NCBI GenBank assembly: GCA_039587355.1
Contig: JBDHIO010000002.1
Span: 95,824 to 159,823, forward strand
Length of the DNA: 64,000 nt
Reading direction: 5' to 3'
Origin: Gemmatimonadota bacterium
GTDB taxonomy: Bacteria > Gemmatimonadota > Gemmatimonadetes > Palauibacterales > Palauibacteraceae
Made by a program: the position numbers and the translations under genes. Positions within the stretch are counted from its first letter, which is position 1. Every line of letters starts with the position of its first letter. Below, one piece after another: positions 18,087 through 51,514 of this stretch. The notes beneath the pieces are model-generated. The model ran no database searches. It saw only the letters and a list, made by a program, of their open reading frames with translations, and was not told the DNA's origin.

Positions 18087-18112
18087 GGCGACCGACTCGG
18101 GAGGACGCGCGG

Positions 18113-21667: not shown

Positions 21668-24199
21668 GTGTCGCAGTCCACCGTCCAGCGCGAACGCATC
21701 GAAGTTCGCTTCATCGAGCAGGAAATGCGGGACTCGTTCATCGACTACTCGATGAGCGTGATCGTACAGCGGGCCTTGCCGGATGCCCGCGATGGTCTGA
21801 AGCCGGTGCACCGGCGGATCCTCTACGCGATGCGTGAGGAGGGCCTGAACCCCTCGCGACCTCACAAGAAGAGCGCGACGGTCGTGGGTGACGTGCTCGG
21901 TCGGTACCACCCCCACGGCGACAGCGCGGTCTACGATTCGATCGTGCGCATGGCGCAGAACTTCTCGCTCCGGTATCCCCTGGTGGACGGTCAGGGGAAT
22001 TTCGGATCGATCGATGGCGACCCCGCGGCCGCCTATCGATACACGGAGGTCCGGCTCACACCGGTGGCCGAAGAGCTCCTGCGCGACATCGACAGCGAGA
22101 CCGTGGACGAACGGCCGAACTTCGATGGTCGCCTGATGGAGCCTGAAGTCCTCCCGGCTCGCCTCCCCCACCTCCTCCTGAACGGCTCCGACGGGATCGC
22201 GGTCGGCATGGCGACGAAGATCCCTCCGCATAACGCGGGGGAGCTTCTCGGCGCCGTCGATCACCTCGTGCAGAACCCGGACTGCGATGTCGAGGCCCTG
22301 ATGAAGCTCGTTCCCGGACCCGACTTTCCGACCGGGGGGTTCATCTGGGGGCGCGCGGGGATCGACAAGGCCTACCGAACCGGCCGGGGCCGGCTCGAGA
22401 TGCGGGGCCGCATTCATGCCGAAGAGGGGCGTTTCGGAAAGAGCGCCCTCGTCGTGACCGAGCTGCCCTACCAGGTGAACAAAACCCGCGTGATCGAACA
22501 GATCGCGAAGATGGTGAAGGCGGGTCGGGGCGATGAGATCACCGAGCTTCGCGACGAATCCGATCGCGACGGGATCCGGCTCGTCATCGAGCTCAAGCGC
22601 GATGCGAAGCCGGACGCGGTGGTGCAGAAGCTCTTCAAGAAGACACAGCTGAAGTACACGTTCGGCGTGATCATGCTGGCGCTGGTCGACGGCCGGCCGG
22701 TGGAACTCGACCTCAAGGCCGCCCTCGACTGCTGGGTACGTCATCGACTCGACGTCATCCGCCGCCGTGCCGCGTTCGATCTCGAGCACGCGGAGGCGCG
22801 CGCGCACATCGTCGATGGGTTGCTGATCGCGCTGAACGACATCGATCGGGTGATCGAAATCATCAGGAGCAGTCGCAACCCCGACTCGGCGCGGAACAAG
22901 CTCCGGAAGGAGTTCGAGCTCTCCGAGGCACAGGCCAACGCGATCCTCGCGATGCGGCTCGCGCAGCTCACCGGCCTCGAGCACAAGAAGCTCGCCGAAG
23001 AGCTCGCGCTGCTGAAGAGCGATATCGCGGCCTTCTCGAAGCTCGTGACGGACGACGCCACTCGCCGGGTTTTCCTGCGCGAGGAGATCCACGAGCTCCG
23101 CGAGCGATACGGCGACCCACGACGCACGGAAATCGTGGAGGACGAGAAGTCCTTCAAGGTGGCCAGGGGCGGCGACCAGGGAACGCGTCTCGTCCTCGTG
23201 AGTCGACAGGGGTACATCAAGGCCCAGCCGGCCGGCGCTGGCGGCGGTCTCGCGGGCGCGGAGGCCATGGAGGCCCGCGAAGGCGATTTCGCGCGCGAGG
23301 CTTTCCTCTGCGGCCCCTCGCACTCCCTGCTGGTGATGAGCGCCAGAGGAAACGCCTACGTCCTGCCAATGAGCAGCCTTCCCCACGGCACTCGGAGTTC
23401 GCGCGGGAAGCGTCTCGATGACTTCATCAGCCTCGAACTCGGGGACGAGGTCGCGGCGGTCATGCCGATCGACGGCTTCCCGGACGACCGGTTCCTCGTG
23501 ATCGCGACGCGTCAGGGACAGGTCAAGCGCACGGCGTTGTCGGAGTACTCGAACGCCCGCGCCGGCGGGATCAAGGGCGCGGGCCTGGCGAAGGGCGACG
23601 AGGTCCTCGGCGCCTTCGTGACGGACGGGTCGCGGGATGTACTGCTGGCCACACGGGCGGGTCAGGCGATTCGGTTCCAGGAAGCCGACATGCGACCGAT
23701 GGGCCGGTCGGCAAAGGGGGTCCGCGGGATCGATCTACCGAAGGGCGACGTCGTCGTTTCCGCGCTCGCACCCCGGCCCGACTCCGACCTGCTCGCGGCG
23801 TCCGAGGCGGGCTTCGGCAAACGGATCCCGTTCACCGAGTTCAAGATGCAGGGTAGGGCCGGCAAGGGGCTCATGGTGCTTCCGGAACGGAAGCGGGTCG
23901 GCAACCTCGTGGGGCTCCTCGAGGTGCACCCGGCAGACGACGTCGCGTGGGAGCGGTCGGACTCGACGATCGACACCACGGCGGCCGCCGACATCCTCAC
24001 GCGAGCGCGTCGCGAAGCGGGGCGGCCGGCGATCGAGTTGCCGGCCGGGGTGGCGGTGGAGGCCGTACACCCGATCCGGTCTGCACCTACGGCACCGTCG
24101 GAGCCGGAGCCCGCGGCTCCGATCGACACCGAGGGGGACGCGGCCGGATCCGACGGCGACGAGACGACGACACAGACCGAGATGGGATTCGAGGGGTGA
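21668..24199 (+). CDS. gyrA: DNA gyrase subunit A (type IIA topoisomerase A subunit; ParC not excluded)
   Basis: GTG start preceded by GGGAGGAGAGG. N-terminus ...[14 protein letters not shown], active-site region, six C-terminal beta-pinwheel blades and an acidic tail. 843 aa. Confidence 0.8.
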
Positions 24200-24368
24200 G
24201 TTGACCGACCCCGACTCCGGTCATGCCGTCCAGGCCACGGACGAACAGGGCCGGAGATACCGGGCCGGCGTCTACGACCCGATCGATGAGAGCGACCTAG
24301 AGGACGCTCCCGACGACCCGGGCTATCCGGCGCGAGGCACCGGACCGGCATTCAAGCGCGTGGCGAGC

Positions 24369-25925
24369 ATGCCGCGCGTCCCGAAGGTCCGACACCTGGT
24401 GGGGCCCTCCGTGATCGCGGCGGGTATGGGCCTGGGCGCCGGCGAGTTTCTGCTCTGGCCCAACCTGATCACCGTGAACGGCTACGGGATCTGGTGGCTG
24501 TTCTGGATCGGCGTGCTCACTCAATTCCTCGTGATCGGCGAGATCGAGCGGTGGACGATCGCCACCGGCGAGTCGGTCTTCGGCGGTATGGCCCGGCTGG
24601 ATCGGTTCTCCTTCTGGCCGTGGTTCTTCCTCGTCGCGACGCTGTTCAGCTTCTTCTGGCCGGGGTGGGCGTCATTGTCCGGAGAGTTCGTCGGCGAGAT
24701 CGTCTTCCTCCTGACGGGCACGCAGCTCGCGTGGCAACCGCTCGCGATCGTGATGCTGCTCTTCATCTGGGTCGGGCTCGCCGCCTCGAAGATCGTATAC
24801 AACGCGCTGGAGCGCTTCGAGATCGGCCTGGTCCTCGGGTTCTTCCCGCTGCTCCTGACCACGCTGCTCATCGTGGGCCTCCTCCCGTCCGACCTCCTCG
24901 ACCTGGCGAAGGGCGCCGTGTCGATCGGGACGGCCCCACCCGAACTCCTGACCGGGGACCAGTTCCCGACCCTCCTTCTCGCCGTGGCATATGCCGGCAC
25001 GGGCGGCACGCTGCTGCTCGCCCAGTCGTTGTGGATTCGCGACAAGGGATTCGGAATGGCGATCCACCAGGGGCGAATCGCCGGCATCCGCGGCGAGAAC
25101 GAGGACATCAGCGATACGGGGTTCGTCTTCGATCCGGACGACATGACCTCGCTGGAGCGCTTCCGCGCCTGGATGCGAGCTTCTCACAAGGAGCTGCTCG
25201 TCACGTTCGTCGTGCTGACCATTGTGAGCGTCGTGATTACCTGCATGCTCGTGACCTCGACCCTCGGCGTCGGGAATTTCGATCTGGCCGGTGACCAGTC
25301 CACGATGGTCTCTCGCCAGGGACAGGCGATTCAGGAAGCCGGCGGCGTATGGCTCCGGATCGCGTTCCTGCTCGGCGGGTCGTTCATCCTGTTCTCGACG
25401 CAGATCGGGATCGTCGACACCGTGACCCGGATCTCCGGAAGCATCTTCTACGAGCGATTCGGTCGGAATACGACGTTCTGGACGCTCAAGCGGACGTTCC
25501 TGCTGTTCCTCACCGTCCTCACCTTCGCGGCGATCGGGATCATCGCGGTGTCGTGGCTCGGCGATCAGGCTCTGGGCGCGCTCCAGCCGACGTTCCTCCT
25601 CCTCGTCGCCGGGCCGTTCACGATCTCGAGCATGTACGCCTACACGCTGGTCGTCGGGTACATGAACTCGGCGATGCTGCCGGTCGCCCTGTCGTCGCCG
25701 GCGTGGAAGCGATGGGGAATGCTGTGGGCAGCGACACTTTGGGGCTGGTTCACCACAGAGGTCGTCGCGAGGGCCGTGATGGGAGGCATCGGAGTCGATG
25801 CCGCGACCGTCGAGTCCCTTTCGTGGCACCCGATCCGTCTCGCGTGTTACGGGTTGTGGATCGGCTCGCTGCTCTGGTTCGCGCTTCGGGTCGTCCCCCG
25901 AAAGGGCCGCCAGGCCGTCTCCTAG
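24369..25925 (+). CDS. Polytopic integral membrane protein (about 11-12 TM; Nramp/APC-like fold suspected)
   Basis: Very hydrophobic 518-aa product. Start chosen at ATG 24369 (MPRVPKVRHLVGPS...). An alternative TTG at 24201 lies 2 nt after the gyrA stop. Confidence 0.5.
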   Translation: MPRVPKVRHLVGPSVIAAGMGLGAGEFLLWPNLITVNGYGIWWLFWIGVLTQFLVIGEIERWTIATGESVFGGMARLDRFSFWPWFFLVATLFSFFWPGWASLSGEFVGEIVFLLTGTQLAWQPLAIVMLLFIWVGLAASKIVYNALERFEIGLVLGFFPLLLTTLLIVGLLPSDLLDLAKGAVSIGTAPPELLTGDQFPTLLLAVAYAGTGGTLLLAQSLWIRDKGFGMAIHQGRIAGIRGENEDISDTGFVFDPDDMTSLERFRAWMRASHKELLVTFVVLTIVSVVITCMLVTSTLGVGNFDLAGDQSTMVSRQGQAIQEAGGVWLRIAFLLGGSFILFSTQIGIVDTVTRISGSIFYERFGRNTTFWTLKRTFLLFLTVLTFAAIGIIAVSWLGDQALGALQPTFLLLVAGPFTISSMYAYTLVVGYMNSAMLPVALSSPAWKRWGMLWAATLWGWFTTEVVARAVMGGIGVDAATVESLSWHPIRLACYGLWIGSLLWFALRVVPRKGRQAVS

Positions 25926-30209: not shown

Positions 30210-32553
<2,344 letters not shown>

Positions 32554-33746
32554 CGATCCAGATCCCCGCCTCGCAACTCGATGTCGCCCGTCTTGGGCGC
32601 CGTCAGAATCACCTGCCCCGACCGGCCCGTTTCGAACAGGTCGAGCAGTCGCCGAGAGCGCCCTTCGTCCAGCTCGGCGAATACGTCGTCGAGCAAATAC
32701 AGCGGCTCCCGGCCCAGCCCCTCGTGCAACCGATCCGCCTCGAGCAACCGCAGGGCGAGAGCCGCCGTGCGCTGCTGTCCGCTCGACCCGTAACCCCGAA
32801 GGTCCCTGGCGCCTTCCGCACCCTCCAGCGGAAACCGCAGATCGTCCCTGTGCGGACCGACCACTGTCATGGCCCGGCGCCGTTCACGATCCGCACTCTC
32901 CGCCAGTGCCGCGCGGAAGCGATCCCTCCAGACGTCCGATTCCTCGGGCGCATCGGACGGATGCCGCAGCGACGCCCCCCGCGCGATTGACGATGAGTAC
33001 ACGACATCGGCCCGGTCACCGTCCGAGACCGTTTCGTAGTACCGCGCATAGCGCTCGCGGCCTTCGATCACCCATCGCTGACGCGTCGTCGTGATCCGGG
33101 CGCCGGTCTCGATCAGTCCCTCCGACCAGGCGGCGAGCTCGTCTTGCGACACACCGCGTCGCAGGGCCTCGTTCCGCTGACCCAGGAGGACCCGGTATTT
33201 CTGGAGCGCGGTGAGGTAGGTCGGCTCGGCGAGGGACAGCGAGACATCCAAGAACCGACGGCGCGACTTCGGGCCGCCCCTGATGATGTCGATGTCCTCC
33301 AGACGGAAGACGGCCACCCCGAGCCTCCCGATCCCATCCGACACCCGCTCCACCTCCTGCCTTCCGACTTCCGCCTTCTTGATCTTGCGGCCCCTGTCGT
33401 ACGCCGCGGCAACGACTCCCGCGTCACCCGACATGGTCCCCTCGATACGGAACACGTCCTGCCCGAACCTCACGAGCTGGGAGTCCGGGACTCCCCTGAA
33501 CGACCGGAAGACCTCGAGGTAGTAGATCGCCTCGAGCAGGTTCGTCTTCCCCGAACCGTTCGGTCCGATGATCGCCACACCGGGACCCGGAAACTCGCAT
33601 TCGAGTTCCTCGAAGTTCCGAAAATTGTGCAGCGTCAGGTGTCCGAGATGGGGCGTTGCGTGCGCCAAATTGGCGCGAACCGACTGTGCTTCGGAGGCCG
33701 TCATTATGGGGAAGCAAAATAGGCCGGAAACCCTTGTGGCGCAAGG

Positions 33747-33776
33747 AAAACCCGGCGGTCGGCAGGGGCTGCCGAC
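33747..33776 (-). terminator. Weak intrinsic-terminator-like hairpin downstream of hbd (GTCGGCAG-CCC-CTGCCGAC then CGCCGGGTTTT on the minus strand)
   Basis: Seen directly: 8-bp GC-rich stem with a 3-nt loop, then a 4-T run after 7 nt. The U-tract is short and not adjacent, so function is doubtful. It could instead be a regulatory palindrome upstream of recF. Confidence 0.25.
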
Positions 33777-33872
33777 ACCCTGCGACACGGTTCCCTGAGG
33801 TGGGGTGCGAGGCGCCGGCCCGACCGGGGCCGGCGCTCGCGATCGGGGATCGGGCCCCCGACCTGCTCGGAC

Positions 33873-41172: not shown

Positions 41173-42525
41173 TCACGACGCTTCCGAGCTCGCCGAGTCG
41201 GTCGGCGACGACCGCTCGCGGGCACCTCGAAGCTCGAGGCTCGTGATCCGCCGCTCGGTGAGTTCGAGGACGCGCAACTCGGCCTCGCCGATCGCGACGG
41301 AATCTCCCTCCTCGGGGATTCTGCCCAGCGTCGCGAGCACGTAACCCGCCATCGTGTCGTATTCGTCGGCATTCTCAAATCCGCCAAGCTCGAACCGATC
41401 AACGATTTCCGAGAACGACGCGCCTCCGTCGAGGATCACGCGGCCGTCGGGTCGGACGGCGACGTCGTCTTCCGCGATGTCGTGTTCATCGTAGATCTCG
41501 CCGACGATCTCCTCGAGCAGATCCTCCAGCGTGACGATCCCGTCGGTCCCTCCGAACTCGTCCAGGACGACCGCCATGTGCGTCTTTCGATGCCTCAACT
41601 CGGCGATCAGATCGTCGACCGGTTTCGTGTCGGGGACGAAGAACGGCTCACGCATCACCGCCGACGCTCCGGCGCCGTCGTCGCCGCTGACCACCCGGCC
41701 GAGCACGTCTTTCACGACCACGATGCCGATGATCTCATCGAGCGATTCCCTGAAGACCGGGAATCGCGAGAAGCCCGACTCGGCCGCCGTCTCGAGGATC
41801 ACCCCGATCGACGCCTCCGCGTCGACGCCGACGATGTCCGGACGCGGCGTCATGACCTCCCGCACGACGGTTCGAGTCAGCTCGAACACGCCCTGGATCA
41901 TCGCCTGCTCGTCCTCTTCGACCACCCCGCTCCGCTGGCTCTCGCTCACGAGCATTTCGATCTCGTCCGGGCTGTGGACCCGGTCGAACGCACTGGTCGC
42001 CGGTAGCCGGAGGAGGCGCAGCACGACATGCGATGACTGGTTCAGAAACCAGATCCAGGGCGCCATCAGTCGGTTGAACCCGTTCAGCGGTCCGGCGACG
42101 AACCGGCTCACGGCCTCCGGATACAGCAGGGCCGCGGTCTTGGGAGCGAGCTCACCGAGGACGATGTGGAGGTAGACGATCAGGACGAACGCGACGACGA
42201 TCGCCAGAGCATGCACGACGGCGGGCGCCGCCGATGTTCCGGCGGAAATCAGCAGGGATTCGATGACCCGGGCGATAGCCGGTTCGCCGATCCACCCGAG
42301 CGTCAGCGTCGCCAGCGTGACCCCGAGCCGGGTCCCGGATATCGCACGATCCAGATCCTGCTGGGCACGGGCGACACGTACGGCGCTCCGATACCCCGCG
42401 TCGATCAGTTCGCGGACGCGCGTGCGGCGTGCCCTGGCGAGCGCGTACTCCGCCGAGACGAAGAACCCGTTCGCCAGGACGAGGGCGAGTACGGCCAGGA
42501 GCCGGAGGACGACTCCTGAGTCCAT
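41173..42525 (-). CDS. HlyC/CorC (CNNM) family transporter: DUF21 membrane domain + CBS pair + CorC_HlyC transporter-associated domain
   Basis: N-terminal DUF21 (LALVLANGFFVSAEYALARARRTRVREL), tandem CBS and C-terminal CorC domain. 450 aa. Confidence 0.85.
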   Translation of the reverse strand: MDSGVVLRLLAVLALVLANGFFVSAEYALARARRTRVRELIDAGYRSAVRVARAQQDLDRAISGTRLGVTLATLTLGWIGEPAIARVIESLLISAGTSAAPAVVHALAIVVAFVLIVYLHIVLGELAPKTAALLYPEAVSRFVAGPLNGFNRLMAPWIWFLNQSSHVVLRLLRLPATSAFDRVHSPDEIEMLVSESQRSGVVEEDEQAMIQGVFELTRTVVREVMTPRPDIVGVDAEASIGVILETAAESGFSRFPVFRESLDEIIGIVVVKDVLGRVVSGDDGAGASAVMREPFFVPDTKPVDDLIAELRHRKTHMAVVLDEFGGTDGIVTLEDLLEEIVGEIYDEHDIAEDDVAVRPDGRVILDGGASFSEIVDRFELGGFENADEYDTMAGYVLATLGRIPEEGDSVAIGEAELRVLELTERRITSLELRGARERSSPTDSASSEAS

Positions 42526-42592
42526 CAGTCGAGCAAGGACCGGCTGATGCCGGCCCGTTCAGGTCCCGGGTCGTCCGGGGACGGAAGCTCGC

Positions 42593-42991
42593 TCAGGCTG
42601 CGCTTACCTCGCCGGTATCGATCACTTCCTCTTCGCTCGCACCGACCGCCTCGACCACGACTTCCTCGGCGGTCGCCACCGCGACCTCGATCTCTTCCGC
42701 GTTCTCTGCCGCGTTCTCCTCGACGTCTTCGTCCGCCTCGGTCTTCGCCGCGGCAGCCCGACCCCCGTGCGAGATCGCGGGGGCGCAGTACCGCTCCCCG
42801 ATGGCCCTGAGGGCGACGAGCTCGTCCGGAGTCAGTTCGGGATAGCGCTCCCCGAGGTATTCGATGGTGTCATCGAACCACTCGGAACGCTGATCATCTT
42901 CTGCTTCCAACACACCGCAACGACGAATATGACTGAAGAGCTCATCTCGAGCCCGATCGATCGAATTCGGAACGTATCCACCTTTTCCCAA
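42593..42991 (-). CDS. Hypothetical protein with an acidic C-terminal tail
   Basis: ATG start with coding-like GC3. Glu/Ala/Val-rich tail. No family recognised. Confidence 0.4.
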   Translation of the reverse strand: MGKGGYVPNSIDRARDELFSHIRRCGVLEAEDDQRSEWFDDTIEYLGERYPELTPDELVALRAIGERYCAPAISHGGRAAAAKTEADEDVEENAAENAEEIEVAVATAEEVVVEAVGASEEEVIDTGEVSAA

Positions 42992-43081
42992 GGCACCTCC
43001 TGATTGGTTTCAGTCTTGTTCTGCGTGGCGCGAATATACCCCGCGCCTGGGCTAGACGCCAAAACGGCCGCCGCAACGCGG

Positions 43082-43887
43082 CTATCCGTCGCCCGGCTCG
43101 AGCTCGCTCAGGTACATGTTCATCTCTCCGACCTTCATCTTCGACTTCAGCTGCACGATCACGCGGCGATGGTCATCGCTGATATAGACCTCGGCCTCGC
43201 CCTCTTCGGAGAAAATGCCGTCCGTCCGGATGACGGGCCGAACCACGATCGTCTCGAAGCGGCCGGCCCGGACTCGAACGCTCTCGCGTCTCAGCACCTC
43301 GACAACGATCGGGTTCCCGCGCTCGAGGAAGTAGTTGTCGAAGCTGTACACCTCTCCCACCTCGAGCGGGAGCGTCCTCACCAGGTAGAGAAAGGAGATC
43401 TCGTCCAGCGCGTTCTGCGGAATCTCGATGTCCCGGTCTTCCGGATGGGGCCGATAGCCACCGGCCTGCTCGTCCCAGTCCTCGCGAACGTAGGTCGACG
43501 AGGTGTGGTCCATCTCCCAGCGGCGATGCCGCTCGTACCCGCCCTGGTCGAGAATCTGTTCGAAGCGGAGCGAGCGGTACGGCGTCGTGGCGAGCCAGCC
43601 GACCTGGCGGTCGTCAATCTTGTAGAAGAAGGGCCCGCCCTCGAGCTCGAGCGCGAGCCGAAACGCCTCCGTGTCGCGGACACGCTCCCGGGCCTCGATG
43701 GCCAGCGAGGCCCGTCCGACCCGGATGGGGCCGAACGTGACGTCGTACGTGGCGCTCTCCCCGACGAGAAACGGCCATTCGGCGACGAAGGGGCCGGCAT
43801 CCGGGAGCGATTCGTCGGCCATCTGGGCCGACCCGGCGCTGAACGACAGGCCGATGGCCAGCGCCACCAGCGGGATCCGCGCTCGCA
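43082..43887 (-). CDS. DUF3108 domain protein (secreted; outer-membrane-associated beta-barrel-like family)
   Basis: ATG at 43887 overlapping the upstream GT2 stop. Signal peptide MRARIPLVALAIGLSFSAGSAQ. The length and beta-rich composition fit DUF3108. Confidence 0.55.
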
Positions 43888-44670
43888 TCACGCGGCGGCC
43901 GATCTCGCACGTTCGGCCGCTTCGCGAATCGATGGATCCCGGCGCGCATGCATCAGGGCCCTGAGCTGCGGCCACGGCTGGAATCGGCTCTCGCGGTACC
44001 GCCGCACACGCGTCGGCGACGGATCGATGACCTCCCCGCGTCGGACGGTCGGGAGGACCCTCAGCAGGAGCTCCGCGTTCGCGGCCCAGCCCTTCTGCCC
44101 GAGTAACGCGTTCCCCTCGCCCGCGTCCGCGAGCGCGCGACCCAGCGTGAATAGCCGGTAGAGCCTGAGGCTCGCATAGGGGTCGTGCGGCTCCTCGGCG
44201 ATCCGCAGACCGCGGGAGAGCAGGTTCGCGCCCGCCCGGATCAGGCGCTGCGGCCGCGGGCCGGCCGCCGGAGGCGAGATCGTGACCAGGTCGGCACCGC
44301 CCTCGAACCGTCGCATCATCTCCGGCACACACTCCGGAGCATCCGTGAAGTCCGCCTGCATCGTGACGAGAGCATCCCGCTTCGGATACCCGGACCGGGC
44401 CGCGGCCTCGCGGACGATCATCTCCAGCGTCGTCGCGTATCCCAGACAGGCGTCGTTGCGGATCAGGGTCATGGGCAACACGCGAGTGTATTTCTCGAGC
44501 ACCTCTTCGGTCCCGTCCGACGACGCATCGTCCACCACGATGACGTGGAACTCGCGTCGCTCCCCATAGAGCAACTCCCGAATCCGCCACAGAAGGGGTC
44601 CGATCGTGTGCCGCTCGTCGTGTACCGGAATGCCTATGTAGATCACTGTTCCAAGCCCCCCGTTTTCCAC
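43888..44670 (-). CDS. Glycosyltransferase family 2 (polyprenyl-phosphate sugar transferase-like)
   Basis: IGIPVHDERHTIGPLL...VIVVDDASSDGT (GT-A DxD context). 260 aa. Confidence 0.7.
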   Translation of the reverse strand: MENGGLGTVIYIGIPVHDERHTIGPLLWRIRELLYGERREFHVIVVDDASSDGTEEVLEKYTRVLPMTLIRNDACLGYATTLEMIVREAAARSGYPKRDALVTMQADFTDAPECVPEMMRRFEGGADLVTISPPAAGPRPQRLIRAGANLLSRGLRIAEEPHDPYASLRLYRLFTLGRALADAGEGNALLGQKGWAANAELLLRVLPTVRRGEVIDPSPTRVRRYRESRFQPWPQLRALMHARRDPSIREAAERARSAAA

Positions 44671-45458
44671 CGCCGATGAAACCAGAAGTACTGCTCGGGT
44701 CGCTCCCTCACGGCCTCCTCAAGTACAGACACCCAGACCCTCGTCGCCGTCACGGCGTCGCCCGCCTCGAGGGCCTCCTCCGCGATCGACTTCACCTCGA
44801 CAAGGTAACCTTTGCCTTCACGCACCAGGCTCCCGAAGACCAGCGGGACTCCGGCCGAGATTGCCAGGCGCGCCGGGCCCAATCGCCACATCGCGGGCCT
44901 TCCCAGAAACGGGATCGGCTCGCCGGCCCAGAAGTGTTGATCCGCCGCGAGCGCCACGCAACGACCGCTCCGAAGAGCCCGGTAGAGCGGCCGCACGCCC
45001 GCATCCTGATCGAGGACCTCCAGACCTATCTCCGATCGTAGCGCGCTCAGCCTGGACCCGAATCTACCGGCCTGCCGGCGCGCGACCGCCGTCAGAGGCA
45101 CCCCCACACTCGCGAGGTACGACCCGGCCAGCTCCCAGTTTCCGAGGTGCCCGGTGACGATGACGGCACCCCGATTCCCGCCCCCGATGCTCGAGAGGAT
45201 ATCGGCCGCCGCCCCCGGGTCGCGGACAGTGCCGAGCGCCCCCCGGACCGCTGTGACGCCGGATGCGAGCAGGCCAAATTCCTCGCCGAAGTGACGGTAG
45301 GAGGCTCTCGCCGTCCGCTTGACCCAAGAATCATCTCGATCCGGAAAGCTCTCGCGAATCTGCGTCTCGACGACACGCCGACGGACGCGTAGCCCCGCGT
45401 GGGCCAGGCCAGCGATCGCCCTTCCCGCGCGACGACCGAGCATCGAACGGTCAGGCAC
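44643..45458 (-). CDS. Lipid A biosynthesis (Kdo2-lipid IVA) acyltransferase, LpxL/HtrB family lysophospholipid acyltransferase
   Basis: Family-typical segments RHFGEEFGLL..., IVTGHLGNWEL (HX4D-like acyltransferase motif region), ALAADQHF. Confidence 0.65.
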   Translation of the reverse strand: MPDRSMLGRRAGRAIAGLAHAGLRVRRRVVETQIRESFPDRDDSWVKRTARASYRHFGEEFGLLASGVTAVRGALGTVRDPGAAADILSSIGGGNRGAVIVTGHLGNWELAGSYLASVGVPLTAVARRQAGRFGSRLSALRSEIGLEVLDQDAGVRPLYRALRSGRCVALAADQHFWAGEPIPFLGRPAMWRLGPARLAISAGVPLVFGSLVREGKGYLVEVKSIAEEALEAGDAVTATRVWVSVLEEAVRERPEQYFWFHRRWKTGGLEQ

Positions 45459-45473
45459 GAATCTCGATCTCGT

Positions 45474-47300
45474 TCACGATGTCGGTGTCATCTGCTCCAG
45501 CTGCCTCGCGAAGAGCCGCGCGTACGCCCCGTCGCGCGCCAGCAGTTCGTCATGCGTCCCCTCCTGGACGAGCCGTCCTTCCTCCAGGACGAGGATCCGG
45601 TCCGCCGCCCGCACGGTGGACAGCCGATGCGCGATGATTAGCACCGTCCGCCCGCGGAACAGCTCGCTCAACGCGTCCTGCACGTGCGTCTCGCTCTCCG
45701 AATCGAGGGCCGAAGTCGCCTCATCCAGAATGAGAATGGGAGAATCACGAAGCACGGCACGCGCGATGCCGATCCTCTGCCGCTGCCCGCCGGAGAGGCG
45801 GGTTCCCCGGTCTCCGAGCACCGTCCCGTAGCCCTCCGGCAACTCCTCGATGAACCCGTCCGCGTGGGCCGCCCGGGCTGCCGCGCGAACCGCGTCGTCC
45901 AGGCCCCCGGCCTCGCCGTAGGCGATGTTCGCGCTAACGGTGTCGTGAAACACCACCGTATCCTGGCTGACGAGTCCGACGAGACGCCGCAGCGAAGCCA
46001 GCGTGAGGTCCCGGATATCCGTCCCATCGATGAGGATCCTGCCCGCGCTCGGATCGGCGAACCTCGGGATCAGGTCGACCAGCGTACTCTTGCCTGCTCC
46101 CGACTGCCCGACTAGAGCCACCATCTCCCCGCGCTCGATCACGAGGTCGACATCGTGGAGGACCGGAAGGTCGCTGCCGTAGGAGAAGGTCACTCCCTCG
46201 AAACGGATTTCGGACTCGAGGCCGGTCGCTTCGATTCCTCCGCCCGACGGCTCAGGGTCCTCTTCGAGGATCTCCTTGAAACGCGCCGCCGCGGCGATGC
46301 CCTGGTGGAACTGAGGCGGCAGCTGCGAGAGCGCCTTGATGGGCGAGATCGCGCGCAGCGCCAGAGTGACAAAGGCGAGAAACTGATCCGGTCCCAGACC
46401 ATTGGACCCGAGCGTGAGACCGGCGCCGATCCACACGAGCGCCAGGGCCACGATCGACGCGAGCGTCTCGGACACGGGCGAGGCGAGATGCCCCACCATG
46501 TTCGTCTTCATGCTCGCGGAAGCGAACCGGGCGGAGCGCGTGGCGAATCTCCTCGCCTCCAGATCCTCCGTGCCCGACGCCTTCACGAGCCTCATGCCGG
46601 TGAGGTTCTCCTGGAGCGCGCTCGTCACTTCGCCGCGATAGTCGAACACGCGAGTCCATGCGGATCGCAGGCGTCCGAGAATCGGCCTCAACGCGAAGAT
46701 CATGATCGGTATGAGAACGAGGGCCAGGAGCGACAACCGCCAGGAGAGGACGACCAGCCCCGCGACGTGGGCCAGGATGGACGCCACGTGCCGCACGTAC
46801 ATGGACCCCACGGACGGGATCAGGCGAGCTTCGCGGGTATCCGACTCCACCCGCGCGATGAGCTGTCCTGTCTTGTCCTTGCCGAAGAACGCGAGCGGAA
46901 GGCGCTGCATGTGCGCCTGAACGGCGTTCCGAAGGTCGCGAATCAGCGACTCCTCGACGCGAATCGACAGGGCCGTCGCGCCGAACAACGAGACGTTCTT
47001 GACGATCGTTACGAGAATGACCACCAGGCAGACGAGCCGCAGCGCCGCGAGCCCCTCGGAATCCCCGATAATCCAGCCGAACAGGGTTTCGATCAGGCGC
47101 TCGGCGGAGTTCCTCCCCCCGCCCGGAAGGACCGCCCCCATGTCGAAGAGCGAACGGAGAAACGGGATGAGGAGCAGGATGCCGAAGGCGTCGAGTGCGG
47201 ATCCGAGAACGCCGAGGACCAGCGACGCCGCGAACGCGGCCCGGTAGGGCCTCAGGTACGACAGGACCAGGTGTAAGGGGGCTTCTTCGAGGATCCTCAT
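45474..47300 (-). CDS. ABC transporter permease/ATP-binding protein, MsbA-like lipid A/lipid exporter
   Basis: Six-TM domain followed by an NBD with Walker A GQSGAGKST, signature LSGGQRQRIGIARA and Walker B ILILDEATSALD. ATGA overlap with the upstream regulator gene. Confidence 0.85.
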   Translation of the reverse strand: MRILEEAPLHLVLSYLRPYRAAFAASLVLGVLGSALDAFGILLLIPFLRSLFDMGAVLPGGGRNSAERLIETLFGWIIGDSEGLAALRLVCLVVILVTIVKNVSLFGATALSIRVEESLIRDLRNAVQAHMQRLPLAFFGKDKTGQLIARVESDTREARLIPSVGSMYVRHVASILAHVAGLVVLSWRLSLLALVLIPIMIFALRPILGRLRSAWTRVFDYRGEVTSALQENLTGMRLVKASGTEDLEARRFATRSARFASASMKTNMVGHLASPVSETLASIVALALVWIGAGLTLGSNGLGPDQFLAFVTLALRAISPIKALSQLPPQFHQGIAAAARFKEILEEDPEPSGGGIEATGLESEIRFEGVTFSYGSDLPVLHDVDLVIERGEMVALVGQSGAGKSTLVDLIPRFADPSAGRILIDGTDIRDLTLASLRRLVGLVSQDTVVFHDTVSANIAYGEAGGLDDAVRAAARAAHADGFIEELPEGYGTVLGDRGTRLSGGQRQRIGIARAVLRDSPILILDEATSALDSESETHVQDALSELFRGRTVLIIAHRLSTVRAADRILVLEEGRLVQEGTHDELLARDGAYARLFARQLEQMTPTS

Positions 47301-48874
47301 TTCGGGGTCAGCAGGGCCGCCGGCATGATCATCTCATCCGGACTGACACCGCCGTGCAGGAAGCTGTCCCGATACCGGTTCTGATACTCCCGCAGCTTCG
47401 TCGGATAGACGAAGAAGTAGTCCTCTCGACAGAGCACGTACGTCTGCTTCAACCCGCCGGGCGGTAACCGCAGCTCGTCCGCGTCGGACGTCGCGAAGAC
47501 GGCTGAGGGATTCTCGACCCGCAGATCGTCCCCGAACTTGTACCGCAGGTTCGCCGTGGCGTCCCGTTTCGCGTAGACGGTCGCGGGTCGGTGACAGTGC
47601 AGCGACCCGTGATCCGTGGTCAGCAGGACCCTCACTCCCCGCTGCGCCGCGATCCGGAGCGCGCGAAACGCCGCGGAGCGCTTGAACCAGTTCACCGTCA
47701 GGGCACGGAGCGCGCTCGTATCCGGCGCCATCTCCCAGATCAGCCTCGACTCGGACCGGCCGTGCGTCAGCATGTCGACGAATCCGAAGACGAGCGCCGT
47801 GGCCGAGGGACTCGAGAGATAGCCCTCGAGTCGGCCGAGCATAGCATCGCCTTCGCCCGCCGAGAAGATCTTTTCGTAGTGCGTCGGCATCCGGCCACCG
47901 GCGAGCTCCGCGACGTGGCGATCGAACAGCTCATCCTCGAACGAGTTGTATCCGATCTCGTCCCCGCGCTCCCACCACTCGGGGCGCAATTCCGCGAGCT
48001 CATCCGGAAACAGACCGCTGAACAGGGCGTTTCGCGCATACGGCGTGGCCGTCGGGAGAATCGAGGAATAGAGCTCCTCCTCGATCTCGAAGAACTCCGA
48101 CACCAGTGGCGCGATCGCGCGCCACTGCCCCAGCCGCATGCAGTCCATGACGATCAACAGCGAGGCCGGGTCTTCGGTCAGCAGGGGGCTGAACATGCGG
48201 CGCAGCACGTCGACGGACAGAGTCGGACCCTCCTCGCCGCCCTCGTGCACCCACTCGCCGTATCGATCCGCGACGAAGTCGCAGAACCCCCGGCGGAGGT
48301 CCACCACCAGCGTGTCGAGGATGTCGCGGAGCCCGCTCTCTTGGGCCTCCTCGAGCTTGAGATCCCAGTCGATCATCTCCGAGTAGAGAGACGACCAGTC
48401 GGTCCACGAACGCGCGGTGGAGCACGCATCCCGGAGTTCCCCGAAACGTCGGGAGAAATCGCGAGCGATCTGCTCGTGTCGGAGGGCCGGGCCCGCGAGT
48501 AGCCGCGTCACGACGGAGAGGACCTGTCGGGGACTCGTCGGCTTCACGATGTAGTCGTCGGCTCGCCGCCCAATCGCCTCGTGCATCGTCGAGTCTTCCT
48601 CGCTCTTCGTCACCATGACGATGGGAAGACGCGGCGACGTGCGTCGGACACGATCGAGCACCTCGATGCCCCTGAGACCCGGCATCTGTTCGTCGAGGAG
48701 GACGAGGTCGTACGTCCTGCTCGCGAGAAGCTCCAGCGCGTCCTGGCCGTTCATGATCGCGTCGACCTGGTACCCCTCCGAGCGCAACAGCATGAGGTGC
48801 GGACGCAGGAGGTCCACCTCATCGTCCACCCAGAGGATCTTCCCTGCCCGAACGCCCTGCGTGGCTTCCGGCAC
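47297..48874 (-). CDS. Response regulator with receiver (REC) domain fused to a PglZ (alkaline-phosphatase-like) domain, PorX-like
   Basis: N-terminal REC (ILWVDDEVDLL..., phospho-acceptor context DLVLLDEQMPG, KP in IVKPT). C-terminal PglZ motifs including LLTTDHGSLHCHR (TxDHG). About 525 aa, as in PorX. Confidence 0.75.
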   Translation of the reverse strand: MPEATQGVRAGKILWVDDEVDLLRPHLMLLRSEGYQVDAIMNGQDALELLASRTYDLVLLDEQMPGLRGIEVLDRVRRTSPRLPIVMVTKSEEDSTMHEAIGRRADDYIVKPTSPRQVLSVVTRLLAGPALRHEQIARDFSRRFGELRDACSTARSWTDWSSLYSEMIDWDLKLEEAQESGLRDILDTLVVDLRRGFCDFVADRYGEWVHEGGEEGPTLSVDVLRRMFSPLLTEDPASLLIVMDCMRLGQWRAIAPLVSEFFEIEEELYSSILPTATPYARNALFSGLFPDELAELRPEWWERGDEIGYNSFEDELFDRHVAELAGGRMPTHYEKIFSAGEGDAMLGRLEGYLSSPSATALVFGFVDMLTHGRSESRLIWEMAPDTSALRALTVNWFKRSAAFRALRIAAQRGVRVLLTTDHGSLHCHRPATVYAKRDATANLRYKFGDDLRVENPSAVFATSDADELRLPPGGLKQTYVLCREDYFFVYPTKLREYQNRYRDSFLHGGVSPDEMIMPAALLTPK

Positions 48875-48875
48875 T

Positions 48876-49943
48876 TCAGTCCCCCGCGCCCCGATACCGA
48901 TCCCTCAACACTGCCAGCTTCTCTATGACATCCTCCTCCGAGATCGACTCCATGTTGCCCGGCCGCGTGACCCGAGATGGCTCCGTTTCACCGGGTCTGG
49001 TATACCGGTCCACGAGCAGATCGGCAAAGCGGCGGTACGGTCCGACACGCTTCGGATCCGTAAACCCGAACAGACCGATCGTAGGGGTGCCCAGCGCCAC
49101 CGCAATGTGCAGCGGGCCGGTGTCGGGACTCAGAACGGCGTCGCTCGCATCGAGCAGCCACGTCATCCGCCGCAAATCACGGTGCAACTCGACGTCCGGT
49201 GGGTGTCGGCAGAGGTCCCCCAAACGGGCCGCATCCGCCGCCTCCCCGGCCGACGGTCCCCCAACGAGGATCGTGCGATACCCGAAGTCCCGAGCGGCCA
49301 CATCCAGTACCCGGGCCGTCCGGTCCAGGATCCAGTCCTTCTCCGGCCGGGAAGAGCGGGTGGCGACGGCCAGGATCGGACGCCCATCGCCCTTCTCGAG
49401 CCAGCGACCGCGCGCCTCGCGCTCCTCCGGAGTGAAGTGGAAGTCCCATTCCGGGACCGTCGGCACGCCGATGTAGTCGAGGAACTCGAAGTACTGATCC
49501 TGCACGTGCCCCGGCGGACGTGCCGGAATCCGGCGATTCGTCGCGAGCCAGCTCAGATCGCGGGAACGGGCGCGGTCGTACCCCACGCGGAGCGGAGCAT
49601 CCATGAGCCGGGTAACGACGGCGGCCTTGAAGTACGGGTGCATGTCGAGCACCAGATCGAAGGACCTGTTGGCGATGTCTCGGCGGAAGTCACGATACGC
49701 CCTTACGCCACGTTCCCGATGAAAGAGCACGAACTCGTCGACATCGGGACGACCGCGCATGAGCTCGTGCGGGAGTGGCTGGATCACCCAGGTGATGTGA
49801 CACGACGGCCACGCGCGGCGAATGGAGGCCGCAACGGGGATTGCGTGGACCGTGTCGCCGATGGCGCTCATGCGCACGAGGGCGACTCGATCCGGCGGCC
49901 GATCGAGGTCGAGCCGGCCGGTCATGTCGGCGGATTCAAGCAC
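48876..49943 (-). CDS. LPS heptosyltransferase (glycosyltransferase family 9, WaaC/WaaF/RfaQ-like)
   Basis: GT9 pattern (RVALVRMSAIGDTVHAIPVAASIRR...). C-terminal DTGPLHIAVALGTPTIGLFG. Confidence 0.75.
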   Translation of the reverse strand: MLESADMTGRLDLDRPPDRVALVRMSAIGDTVHAIPVAASIRRAWPSCHITWVIQPLPHELMRGRPDVDEFVLFHRERGVRAYRDFRRDIANRSFDLVLDMHPYFKAAVVTRLMDAPLRVGYDRARSRDLSWLATNRRIPARPPGHVQDQYFEFLDYIGVPTVPEWDFHFTPEEREARGRWLEKGDGRPILAVATRSSRPEKDWILDRTARVLDVAARDFGYRTILVGGPSAGEAADAARLGDLCRHPPDVELHRDLRRMTWLLDASDAVLSPDTGPLHIAVALGTPTIGLFGFTDPKRVGPYRRFADLLVDRYTRPGETEPSRVTRPGNMESISEEDVIEKLAVLRDRYRGAGD

Positions 49944-50030
49944 GCCCGGACCTCCTCACCGCCTCGGCGGTACTGATCTCCGGCCTCAGGAACGGCTGAC
50001 AAACGGGAAGAGGGACCGTACTCTCGAATC

Positions 50031-51504
50031 GATGAGCATCCTCACACGCTATCTGTTGCGGCTCCAAGTGGCCCCGTTCGTCTTCGCGGTGACCGGGCTC
50101 ACGCTGCTGCTCCTGCTCGACCAGGTCAGCAAGCGGTTCGCGGACCTGATCGGGAAAGACCTCCACTGGACGGTGATCGTGGAGGTCTTCGTGTACTCGG
50201 TACCGTTCATTCTCGCCCAGACCCTGCCGATGGCGGTGCTCATCGCGGTCCTCTACACGTTCAACCGTCTCGCCGGCAACTACGAAATCACCGCGATCCG
50301 CGCCAGCGGCGTGTCGCTCATCCGCATCATGGCTCCGTTGATGGTCGCGGCCACGATTCTCGCGGGGGCGATGACCTGGTTCAACAACACGATTCTCCCC
50401 GAGTCGAATCACACGCTCCAGGCGCTGCTCACGAGCATCGGTCGCAAGAAGCCGACGTTCTATCTACGCGAACGAACGATCAACGAGGTACTCCCGTCGC
50501 GGCTGTACGTGCAACCCGGCCCGATCCATCGCGAGCGCAGCGCGTTCGATGATGTCGTCATCTACGACGAGCGAGGGAGCAAAAGCCGGACGATCTACGC
50601 CGACAGCGGCCGCATGGCGTTTGGTGGAGGCGGCGAAGATCTCTACCTCACGCTTCTCGACGGGACGCTGCAGGAACGCGTCGAAGACAGCCCGCACTCT
50701 TTTCAACGGATCAAGTTCCACCGGATGGTGATGAAGGTGGAGGATGTGTCCAACCTCCTCGAGCGCGACACGCTGAACAGCTACCGCAGTGATCGCGAGA
50801 TGAACATCCAGGACATGCACGAGATGGTCGTGGAGGGCGAACAGAGGGTCGCCCTCGCTCGAGCCGAGTCGCAGGAATACGCGATCGCGCTCGCGGAACG
50901 GCTCACCCGGTTCAGCGAGCCTCTCGAGGCGGCGGGCGAGATAGAAGGCAATCCGGTGGACGACCCCGCGCGCTCGCCGCTCGAGGCAGCGGACCCGACT
51001 GCCGAACGACTCGAGTCGCTTCGTCAGGACGGGGCGCGATCACCACCCGGAGCAGGGGAAGAAATCGTCGACCCGGGCACCAAGCTACAGGCACCGTCGG
51101 CGGACTCGGCGCGGGCGCTCGCTCGAGCCGCGGCCGAGCGCTTCGTCGCGGCGGTAGACGCGACCAACCGGTTCGACGCGTACCACCAGCGCGACCTGTC
51201 CGGGCAGGCACAGATCAACAAGTTCTGGGTCGAAATCCACAAGAAGGGGTCCATCCCCGCGGCCTGCATCGTATTCGTGTTGATCGGAGCCCCCATCGCG
51301 GTCCGCTACCCACGGGCCGGCGTCGCGCTCGTCGTGGGCGTCAGCCTGGTGTTCTTCGGCGCCTACTACGTCTCGCTCGTCGGCGGCGAGGAGCTCGCGG
51401 ATCGGAGGCTCATCTCCCCGCTCTGGGCCATGTGGGGACCCAACGTGCTCTTCGGCGTGGTCGGTCTCATCGCCCTGCTCCAGGCGAGACGGGTCTCCTC
51501 GTGA
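50031..51504 (+). CDS. lptF: LPS export ABC transporter permease LptF (YjgP/YjgQ family)
   Basis: ATG at 50031 gives MSILTRYLLRLQVAPFVFAVTGLTLLLL (typical LptF/G start). Three N-terminal TM segments, periplasmic beta-jellyroll, three C-terminal TM segments. Confidence 0.75.
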
Positions 51505-51514
51505 GTGTCCACGA

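What the first reader, a model, noticed from the sequence alone, without database searches (positions are those of the whole stretch)
47297..48874. REC-PglZ protein retains the catalytic-looking TxDHG motif and the phospho-acceptor Asp
The receiver has the acidic pocket (VDDEVD) and DLVLLDEQMPG with the conserved Asp, plus the downstream T/S and K (IVKPT). The PglZ part has LLTTDHGSLHCHR, matching the alkaline-phosphatase-superfamily metal-binding T-D-H cluster reported as essential in PorX. This argues for an enzymatically active output domain (nucleotide/phosphodiester hydrolysis) rather than a degenerate one. There is no DNA-binding domain, so the output is enzymatic or by protein-protein contact.
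Basis: partly seen in the sequence, partly recalled or inferred. Interest (0 to 1): 0.6.

Follow-up and report, generated by a model that had tools for sequence, protein, structure and literature searches.

The report
PorX-type response regulator, active site intact
This gene encodes an ordinary but complete copy of PorX, the known signalling protein that controls type IX secretion in Bacteroidetes relatives. It comes from a Gemmatimonadota genome, keeps every catalytic and metal-binding residue, and sits unusually inside a lipopolysaccharide assembly and export operon.

Summary
Window 47297-48874 (minus strand) is a real 525-aa gene encoding a receiver domain, a three-helix bundle and a PglZ/alkaline-phosphatase-type domain, and every quoted motif is present.

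It is a PorX orthologue:
- NCBIfam's PorX equivalog model scores 543.8 bits (cutoff 300) over the full length. The best BREX PglZ model scores 58.7 bits (cutoff 250).
- It matches the P. gingivalis and F. johnsoniae PorX crystal structures by sequence (E 1e-117 and 1e-105).
- An AlphaFold model (pLDDT 88.9) matches them with TM 0.86-0.90. The best BREX PglZ gives TM 0.46.

All seven PorX metal and catalytic residues are kept (D244, T277, D367, H371, D421, H422, H507), as are D61, T89 and K111. All but T89 (T or S) are invariant in 40 Gemmatimonadota homologues. About 14% of family representatives have lost ligands, so retention is informative.

One correction: the nucleophile is T277 in ILPTAT, not the Thr of TTDHG, and D421/H422 are the Zn2 ligands.

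The main difference is context. The gene lies in a conserved GT9-porX-msbA-lpxL-GT2-DUF3108 operon, not next to tsaE/ubK as in other lineages.

Verdict: new member of a known kind, low interest. Enzyme activity and a link to type IX secretion are inferred, not shown.

The parts
47297..48874 (-). porX-like gene, 525 aa (GTG start at 48874, TGA stop at 47297-47299)
   Evidence: NCBIfam NF052313 T9SS_RR_PorX scores 543.8 bits against a cutoff of 300. PDB PorX E=1.4e-117.
48497..48841 (-). Receiver (CheY-like) domain, residues 12-126. Acidic pocket D17/D18 (48821-48826), phospho-acceptor D61 (48692-48694), T89 (48608-48610), K111 (48542-48544).
   Evidence: Pfam Response_reg E=1e-25. Residue mapping to PorX D58/T86/K108. 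Coordinates checked.
48251..48493 (-). Three-helix bundle linker, residues 128-208
   Evidence: The AF2 model has helices 128-153, 157-176 and 180-208. The full-length superposition on the PorX structures gives TM 0.86-0.90.
47300..48226 (-). PglZ / alkaline-phosphatase-superfamily domain, residues 217-525. D244 (48143-48145); ILPTAT with nucleophile T277 (48044-48061); D367..H371 (47762-47776); TTDHG with D421/H422 (47606-47620); H507 (47354-47356, first codon of the HGG triplet at 47348-47356).
   Evidence: Pfam PglZ. Ligand mapping. Ligands invariant in alignment A1. Coordinates checked.
48876..49943 (-). Upstream gene of the same operon: a GT9 (heptosyltransferase-family) glycosyltransferase. 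Its stop codon lies 1 nt before the porX start.
   Evidence: Pfam Glyco_transf_9 E=1e-37. Junction sequence.
45474..47300 (-). Downstream MsbA-like ABC exporter. Its ATG overlaps the porX TGA (ATGA, 4-nt overlap).
   Evidence: Pfam ABC_membrane plus ABC_tran. TIGR02203 MsbA scores 515 bits, below its 602 cutoff. Junction sequence. The same overlap occurs in L030 and L031.
44643..45458 (-). LpxL-like lipid A late acyltransferase
   Evidence: Pfam Lip_A_acyltrans E=3e-32.
43888..44670 (-). GT2 glycosyltransferase ORF (the upper limit is the longest ORF; the true start may lie further downstream)
   Evidence: Pfam Glycos_transf_2 E=1.5e-15. The same gene order occurs in L030 and L031.
43082..43890 (-). 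DUF3108 gene. The domain lies at residues 281-494 of the long ORF 43082-44590; the start is approximate.
   Evidence: Pfam DUF3108 E=5e-32.
49822..52591 (+). Divergently transcribed lptF/lptG-like LPS export permease pair (49822-51504 and 51515-52591)
   Evidence: Pfam LptF_LptG E=3e-75 and 3e-71.

Best explanation
The gene encodes a PorX-family orphan response regulator from a Gemmatimonadota bacterium. The architecture is a receiver domain, a three-helix bundle and a PglZ/alkaline-phosphatase-type phosphodiesterase domain.

Shown here: full-length orthology to PorX by sequence and predicted fold; an intact phospho-acceptor site (D17/D18, D61, T89, K111); and an intact two-zinc active site (Zn2: D244, T277, D421, H422; Zn1: D367, H371, H507; nucleophile T277).

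Inferred from the characterised P. gingivalis and F. johnsoniae proteins:
- Phosphorylation of D61 by an unlinked PorY-like kinase (or by acetyl phosphate), and/or zinc binding, drives formation of an intertwined dimer.
- That dimer switches on zinc-dependent phosphodiesterase activity towards phosphodiester substrates: bis-pNPP for PorX-Fj; cyclic and linear oligoadenylates cleaved, and pGpG bound in the inactive-mutant crystal, for PorX-Pg.
- The receiver domain also signals by protein contact with the T9SS motor protein (PorL/GldL), and PorX as a whole with an ECF sigma factor.

Specific to this lineage, the gene is apparently co-transcribed and translationally coupled with LPS core, lipid A and export genes (GT9-porX-msbA-lpxL-GT2-DUF3108).
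For: - NCBIfam PorX equivalog: 543.8 bits (cutoff 300), residues 12-525 against model positions 2-513 of 513.
- phmmer against PDB: PorX-Pg 7pv7/7pva E=1.4e-117; PorX-Fj 8p6f/8ted E about 1e-105.
- AF2 model with pLDDT 88.9. Foldseek against PDB puts all 17 PorX chains on top, E 2e-60 to 3e-52, TM 0.82-0.90.
- All seven ligands, R281 and D61/T89/K111 are conserved. All of them except T89 (T in 35, S in 5) are invariant in 40 homologues of 60-94% identity.
- 56 of 65 family representatives keep the DTDHDHH ligand pattern and 9 do not, so retention is informative.
- The host phylum belongs to the FCB group. PorX is reported to be confined to that group (PMC9757075), and a T9SS is reported as possibly present there (PMC11285876).
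- The mechanistic facts come from PMC9757075, PMC11320123 and PMC10951265.
- Operon junctions. Conserved synteny.
Against: - No enzyme assay exists for this protein or for any Gemmatimonadota PorX.
- No T9SS gene, PorY-type kinase or ECF sigma factor was found among the genes of the 64-kb window scanned with Pfam. The presence of a T9SS in this organism could not be tested.
- The auxiliary phosphate-binding Asn (Pg N358, Fj N357) is Gly364 here, so substrate preference may differ.
- The PglZ dimer-interface serines S385/S389 are A391/N395 here.
- The tsaE/ubK gene that follows porX in other lineages is absent here, and the UbK1 target Tyr79 is Arg82.
Confidence: 0.8

Rival explanations
1. The protein is a PorX-like enzyme that this Gemmatimonadota clade has redeployed, partly or wholly, to coordinate lipopolysaccharide and outer-membrane biogenesis (MsbA flipping, lipid A acylation, core glycosylation, Lpt export). 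In this reading it does not regulate a T9SS, or does so only in addition.
For: - porX lies 1 nt after a GT9 gene, and its stop overlaps the msbA-like start.
- The block GT9-porX-msbA-lpxL-(GT2)-DUF3108 with divergent lptFG is kept in 29 Gemmatimonadota loci.
- The porX-msbA-lpxL-GT2-DUF3108 core is also kept in homologues of only 59% and 66% identity.
- More distant lineages carry a different neighbourhood, porX-tsaE-tsaB.
- No T9SS gene was found in the window.
- Saran et al. note that the structural neighbours of the APS domain act in nucleotide and lipid signalling.
Against: - Gene order alone shows co-expression, not function. In other lineages porX is likewise embedded among housekeeping genes.
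- The active site and overall fold are the same as in T9SS PorX.
- The loci with this synteny belong to one phylum, so shared ancestry could explain it.
- A literature search found no report linking PorX to MsbA or lipid A synthesis.
Confidence: 0.13
2. The PglZ domain is a catalytically dead scaffold, and the protein signals only through protein-protein contacts.
For: - Nine of 65 family representative clusters have lost at least one metal ligand, so such pseudo-enzymes seem to exist in the family.
- N358 is replaced by G364 at the auxiliary phosphate site.
Against: - All seven ligands, the nucleophile Thr and R281 are present, and they are invariant in 40 close homologues.
- The predicted fold superposes on active PorX.
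Confidence: 0.05
3. The PglZ domain belongs to a BREX or Pgl phage-defence system.
For: The generic Pfam PglZ domain hits, and there are weak PADLOC PglZ hits of at most 43.9 bits.
Against: - NCBIfam BREX-3 PglZ scores 58.7 bits against a cutoff of 250.
- The best BREX structure, 9zn5_B, gives TM 0.46/0.30.
- None of the window genes scanned is a BrxC, PglX or BrxL homologue. The immediate neighbours are LPS genes, and the four other nearby proteins scanned with PADLOC gave no BREX-family hit.
- The N-terminal receiver domain is the PorX architecture.
Confidence: 0.01

Closest known systems
PorX of Porphyromonas gingivalis (PDB 7PV7, 7PVA, 7PVK; PMC9757075)
   Same: - Same three-part architecture over the full length, at 35-36% identity and TM 0.86-0.88.
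- Phospho-acceptor Asp (D58 -> D61).
- All seven Zn and catalytic residues, plus R276 -> R281.
- Orphan gene with no adjacent histidine kinase.
- No canonical DNA-binding domain.
   Different: - Host phylum is Gemmatimonadota, not Bacteroidota.
- N358 -> G364 at the second phosphate site.
- Dimer-interface S385/S389 -> A391/N395.
- I129 -> R132.
- The UbK1 phosphosite Y79 -> R82.
- The downstream gene is msbA-like, not ubK1/tsaE.
- No experimental data.
PorX-Fj of Flavobacterium johnsoniae (PDB 8P6F, 8TED/8TEF/8TFF/8TFM/8THP; PMC10951265, PMC11320123)
   Same: - Best structural match, TM 0.88-0.90 and rmsd about 3 A over 520 columns.
- Identical set of catalytic residues (T271, D360, H364, H499, D237, D414, H415).
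   Different: - 32-33% identity.
- Auxiliary-site N357 is Gly here.
- Interaction with GldL is untested.
- Different genomic context.
BREX PglZ (for example BREX-1 PglZ; PDB 9ZN5 chain B; PMC12205998)
   Same: The same PglZ/alkaline-phosphatase core fold and the same metal-ligand positions.
   Different: - No receiver domain or three-helix bundle in BREX PglZ.
- Scores far below the family cutoffs (58.7 against 250 bits; TM 0.46).
- No BREX partner genes nearby.
ENPP-type nucleotide pyrophosphatases/phosphodiesterases and PhnA (alkaline phosphatase superfamily)
   Same: A two-zinc site with a Thr nucleophile. The PorX papers name these as the nearest non-PglZ structural relatives.
   Different: These are secreted or stand-alone enzymes without a receiver domain. 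They were not compared directly here.

Membership tests
PorX (T9SS response regulator, REC + three-helix bundle + PglZ/APS) | Full-length match above the curated family threshold | tested here: met
   NF052313 equivalog scores 543.8 bits against a cutoff of 300, covering residues 12-525 against model positions 2-513 of 513.
PorX (T9SS response regulator, REC + three-helix bundle + PglZ/APS) | Receiver domain with acidic pocket, phospho-acceptor Asp, and conserved Thr and Lys | tested here: met
   D17/D18, D61 (= Pg D58), T89 and K111. The Asp and Lys residues are invariant in alignment A1, and T89 is T or S.
PorX (T9SS response regulator, REC + three-helix bundle + PglZ/APS) | Three-helix bundle between the domains, and the overall PorX fold | tested here: met
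   AF2 helices 128-208. TM 0.82-0.90 to all PorX chains in the PDB. This rests on a predicted structure, not a solved one.
PorX (T9SS response regulator, REC + three-helix bundle + PglZ/APS) | Two-zinc site: D239, T272, D361, H365, D415, H416, H500 (Pg numbering) | tested here: met
   D244, T277, D367, H371, D421, H422 and H507 are all present and invariant in 40 homologues.
PorX (T9SS response regulator, REC + three-helix bundle + PglZ/APS) | Auxiliary phosphate-binding residues (Pg R276/N358; Fj R275/K329/N357) | tested here: inconclusive
   R281 is kept. The Asn is Gly364 here (G in 31 of 40 Gemmatimonadota homologues, N in 45 of 66 family-wide). The equivalent of K329 was not mapped with certainty.
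PorX (T9SS response regulator, REC + three-helix bundle + PglZ/APS) | Zn-dependent phosphodiesterase activity and phosphorylation- or Zn-induced dimerisation | not testable with these tools
   This needs biochemistry. It is inferred only from conserved residues.
PorX (T9SS response regulator, REC + three-helix bundle + PglZ/APS) | Occurs in an organism that has a type IX secretion system; partners are PorY, SigP and PorL/GldL | not testable with these tools
   None of these genes was found among the window genes scanned with Pfam. The literature says only that a T9SS 'may be present' in Gemmatimonadetes. The phylum is in the FCB group.
PorX (T9SS response regulator, REC + three-helix bundle + PglZ/APS) | porX followed by ubK1/tsaE (a conserved neighbourhood reported for P. 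gingivalis) | tested here: not met
   The downstream gene here is msbA-like. tsaE follows porX in L033-L037. This is a contextual feature, not a defining feature of the protein family.
BREX / Pgl PglZ | Match above a BREX PglZ family threshold | tested here: not met
   BREX_PglZ_3 scores 58.7 bits against a cutoff of 250. PADLOC PglZ models score at most 43.9 bits.
BREX / Pgl PglZ | Encoded next to BrxC/PglY, PglX and other BREX genes | tested here: not met
   The neighbours are GT9, MsbA-like, LpxL, GT2, DUF3108 and LptF/G.

The most novel reading that the evidence does not exclude
In one Gemmatimonadota clade, PorX has been captured into an LPS core/lipid A/export operon and is translationally coupled to the MsbA-like flippase. 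In this reading its phosphorylation- and zinc-gated phosphodiesterase couples an envelope signal to LPS assembly or export. This might be the ancestral link between T9SS cargo anchoring and LPS. The lineage-specific Asn-to-Gly change at the second phosphate site could indicate a different substrate.
Probability: 0.12. Interest if true: 0.55.

Novelty: new member of a known kind. Interest (0 to 1): 0.2.

Why it matters
As it stands, this is a correct functional call for a protein that public records label only 'response regulator' or 'bifunctional response regulator/alkaline phosphatase family protein'.

It extends the set of fully intact PorX enzymes to Gemmatimonadota, a little-cultured phylum where type IX secretion is only suspected.

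It also gives two small testable leads:
- a clade-specific operon link between PorX and LPS export;
- a natural Asn-to-Gly variant at the auxiliary phosphate pocket, which could help define what PorX really hydrolyses in cells.

None of this changes current understanding of the family.

Tried and rejected
- **BREX/defence reading:** rejected on NCBIfam, PADLOC, fold and neighbourhood evidence.
- **Degenerate-domain reading:** rejected by ligand mapping.
- **T9SS genes, a PorY-type kinase or an ECF sigma factor in the window:** searched by scanning about 55 ORFs with Pfam. None was found. The CNNM protein at 41173-42525 scores below the GldE threshold (192 against 376 bits), so it is not counted as GldE.
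- **Whether the organism has a T9SS:** this could not be settled.
- **Promoter and terminator scan of 42000-52800:** counts were no higher than in shuffled sequence, so it is uninformative for operon limits.
- **Rfam and tRNA scans of the whole window:** nothing found.
- **Literature search for a PorX-MsbA or PorX-lipid A link:** it returned only papers on A-LPS attachment of T9SS cargo, and no direct connection.
Full report
**Observation.** The reported interval is exactly one ORF on the minus strand (47297-48874, GTG start, 525 aa).
- WVDDEVD (D17, D18);
- YDLVLLDEQMPG (D61);
- DYIVKPT (K111);
- VLLTTDHGSLHCHR (T419-G423).

The codon-position GC pattern is that of a real gene in this 67% GC sequence (GC3 0.85, GC2 0.44). 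Pfam finds a receiver domain (residues 13-122, E=1e-25) and a PglZ domain (240-430, E=1e-11) and nothing else.

**What it is.**
- NCBIfam's equivalog model for the type IX secretion response regulator PorX (NF052313) matches end to end: residues 12-525 against model positions 2-513 of 513. It scores 543.8 bits against a curated cutoff of 300.
- The best BREX PglZ model scores 58.7 bits against a cutoff of 250. PADLOC PglZ models reach at most 43.9 bits.
- Against the PDB by sequence, the top hits are the crystal structures of P. gingivalis PorX (7PV7/7PVA, E=1.4e-117; 7PVK) and F. johnsoniae PorX (8P6F, 8TED and others, E about 1e-105). The next hits are isolated receiver domains at E about 1e-17.
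- An AlphaFold2 model built on 40 homologues has mean pLDDT 88.9. It shows a CheY-like domain, three long helices (128-208) and an alpha/beta domain.
- Foldseek against the PDB returns all 17 PorX chains first (E 2e-60 to 3e-52, TM 0.82-0.90, about 518 aligned columns). The best BREX PglZ (9ZN5_B) has E=7e-11 and TM 0.46/0.30.

**Catalytic and regulatory residues.** Schmitz et al. (PMC9757075) list the metal-coordinating residues of PorX-Pg as D239, T272, D361, H365, D415, H416 and H500.
- T272 is the catalytic Thr.
- Zn2 is bound by T272, D415, H416 and D239.
- D361 and H365 bind Zn1.

Saran et al. (PMC11320123) give the equivalent set for PorX-Fj. Mapping through the HMMER alignment gives D244, T277, D367, H371, D421, H422 and H507 in the window protein, all identical. 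Also identical are:
- R281 (Pg R276, which contacts a substrate phosphate);
- the fold-core residues L273, P274, T275, T420, G423, R444, F488, G508, G509, E514 and P518;
- the receiver residues D61 (D58), T89 (T86) and K111 (K108).

In an alignment of 40 homologues at 60-94% identity, all seven ligands, D17, D18, D61, K111 and R281 are invariant. T89 is T or S.

Retention is not trivial. I aligned 65 full-length representatives of 50%-identity clusters found by an exhaustive HMMER search (345 clusters at E<=1e-30). Of these, 56 keep the DTDHDHH ligand pattern. Nine have one or more ligands replaced, although most of them keep the receiver residues. The window protein belongs to the intact majority.

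The Thr of TTDHG adjacent to the Asp is the equivalent of Pg T414, which is described as a fold-core residue. The nucleophile is T277, in the ILPTAT motif. The residues shown to be essential by mutagenesis were T272A and D361A/H365A in Pg, and T271V and D360A/H364A in Fj. D415/H416 are structural Zn2 ligands that were not mutated in the texts I read.

**Differences from the characterised proteins.**
- The Asn that binds the second phosphate (Pg N358, Fj N357) is Gly364 here. Gly occurs in 31 of 40 Gemmatimonadota homologues but in only 2 of 66 sequences in the family-wide alignment, where Asn has 45.
- The PglZ dimer-interface serines S385/S389 are A391/N395, and these positions vary within the clade.
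- The tyrosine that UbK1 phosphorylates in PorX-Pg (Y79; PMC13241743) is Arg82 here. That position is variable across the family.

**Organism and context.**
- The closest genomes are Gemmatimonadota MAGs, up to 91% identity in the best aligned segment. Candidatus Palauibacter is at 78%.
- NCBI taxonomy places Gemmatimonadota in the FCB group. Schmitz et al. report that PorX is confined to that group, and a review says a T9SS 'may also be present' there (PMC11285876).
- Public records call a near-identical cluster member 'bifunctional response regulator/alkaline phosphatase family protein', and the Palauibacter homologue (78% identical) 'T9SS response regulator signal transducer PorX'.

On the minus strand the gene order is:
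- GT9 glycosyltransferase (48876-49943, stop 1 nt before the porX start);
- porX;
- an MsbA-like ABC exporter (45474-47300), whose ATG overlaps the porX TGA;
- an LpxL-like acyltransferase (44643-45458);
- a GT2 gene (about 43888-44670);
- a DUF3108 gene.

lptF/lptG-like genes run divergently (49822-52591), and beyond them lie sugar-nucleotide dehydratase/epimerase genes.

This block is conserved, in whole or as far as the contigs reach, in 29 Gemmatimonadota loci. The porX-msbA(overlap)-lpxL-GT2-DUF3108 core is also found around homologues of only 59% and 66% identity.

More distant homologues (41-44% identity) have a different context:
- In five of six loci (Chitinivibrionales, KSB1 and three unlabelled), porX is followed directly by tsaE and, in four of the five, tsaB. 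tsaE belongs to the UbK family.
- In one of those five, the T9SS translocon gene sprA lies directly upstream.
- A sixth locus, labelled Gemmatimonadetes, has neither arrangement. It does carry an S8 peptidase with a faint T9SS sorting-domain hit.

None of the window ORFs scanned with Pfam (about 55) is a T9SS component, a histidine kinase next to porX, or an ECF sigma factor. PorX is also an orphan regulator in P. gingivalis.

**How it most likely works.**

*Shown here:* orthology, predicted fold, an intact phospho-acceptor site and an intact di-zinc site.

*Inferred by homology:*
- D61 is phosphorylated by an unlinked sensor kinase or by acetyl phosphate.
- Phosphorylation and/or zinc binding produces the intertwined dimer.
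- Only the dimer has zinc-dependent phosphodiesterase activity, with T277 as nucleophile. Known substrates are bis-pNPP (PorX-Fj) and cyclic and linear oligoadenylates (PorX-Pg); pGpG was seen bound in the inactive T272A mutant of PorX-Pg.
- The receiver domain contacts the T9SS motor protein (PorL/GldL). PorX as a whole binds an ECF sigma factor, an interaction the authors tentatively assign to the PglZ end.

*Inferred from gene order:* the protein is made together with LPS assembly and export proteins in this clade. Whether that reflects a functional link (T9SS cargo is anchored to LPS in P. gingivalis) or only co-expression with housekeeping genes is open. I put the LPS-linked reading at roughly 12-13%.

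**Novelty and score.** This is a new member of a known kind: a canonical, apparently active PorX in a phylum where none has been studied. It has a clade-specific genomic context and one notable pocket substitution. A specialist would not be surprised. Interest is 0.2.

Noticed in passing
L033 7001-9293; L034 4154-7159; L035 379-9760; L036 5372-8120; L037 4462-7170: In five of six distant PorX loci from other FCB lineages, porX is followed directly by tsaE (PF02367, the UbK kinase family), and in four of these five also by tsaB. In L035 the T9SS translocon gene sprA lies immediately upstream. The porX-ubK1 adjacency has been reported only across P. gingivalis strains (PMC13241743). It appears to be far older, and it is replaced by msbA in the window's clade.
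   Followed up: partly
alignment A2 (proteins P0141, P0153, P0177, P0200, P0209, P0219, P0226, P0237, P0238): Nine of 65 full-length REC-PglZ representative clusters have one or more of the seven metal ligands replaced. Seven of the nine keep all five receiver residues. These are probable pseudo-enzyme PorX relatives.
   Followed up: partly
window 47783-47785 (codon of Gly364): The auxiliary phosphate-binding Asn of PorX (Pg N358, Fj N357) is Gly in the window protein and in 31 of 40 Gemmatimonadota homologues. Family-wide, Asn occurs in 45 of 66 sequences. This may be a lineage-specific change in substrate pocket.
   Followed up: partly
window 55289-56893 (+) and 56898-57980 (+): An HD_5/HD-domain protein (HD-GYP-like, a possible cyclic-nucleotide phosphodiesterase) is followed by a protein with a weak GIY-YIG hit. 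Both lie about 6 kb from porX and are partly syntenic in related loci (L003, L004, L006).
   Followed up: no
window 52598-53560 (-) and 53563-54520 (-): Two adjacent NAD-dependent sugar-nucleotide enzymes (a GalE-like epimerase and a GDP-mannose 4,6-dehydratase) lie next to lptG. The long ORFs listed mechanically (52598-54571 and 53563-54870) over-extend both genes.
   Followed up: partly
window 21668-24199 (+) and 30210-33788 (-): gyrA lies on the plus strand, and recF-dciA-gyrB form a cluster on the minus strand. This is the kind of gene set often found near a chromosomal origin. No dnaA or dnaN was seen in the window.
   Followed up: no
window 24200-25920 and 16860-18110: Two stretches of 1.2-1.7 kb have no ORF with normal codon-position GC. 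ORF 24521-25144 (-) has GC3 0.91 but GC1 only 0.43, and no Pfam hit. No Rfam family or tRNA was found anywhere in the 64 kb.
   Followed up: partly
window 41173-42525 (-): A CNNM/CBS/CorC protein lies downstream of the LPS block. Its best NCBIfam hits are PaeA and GldE, but both are well below cutoff (GldE 192 against 376 bits), so it should not be read as a gliding or T9SS marker.
   Followed up: yes
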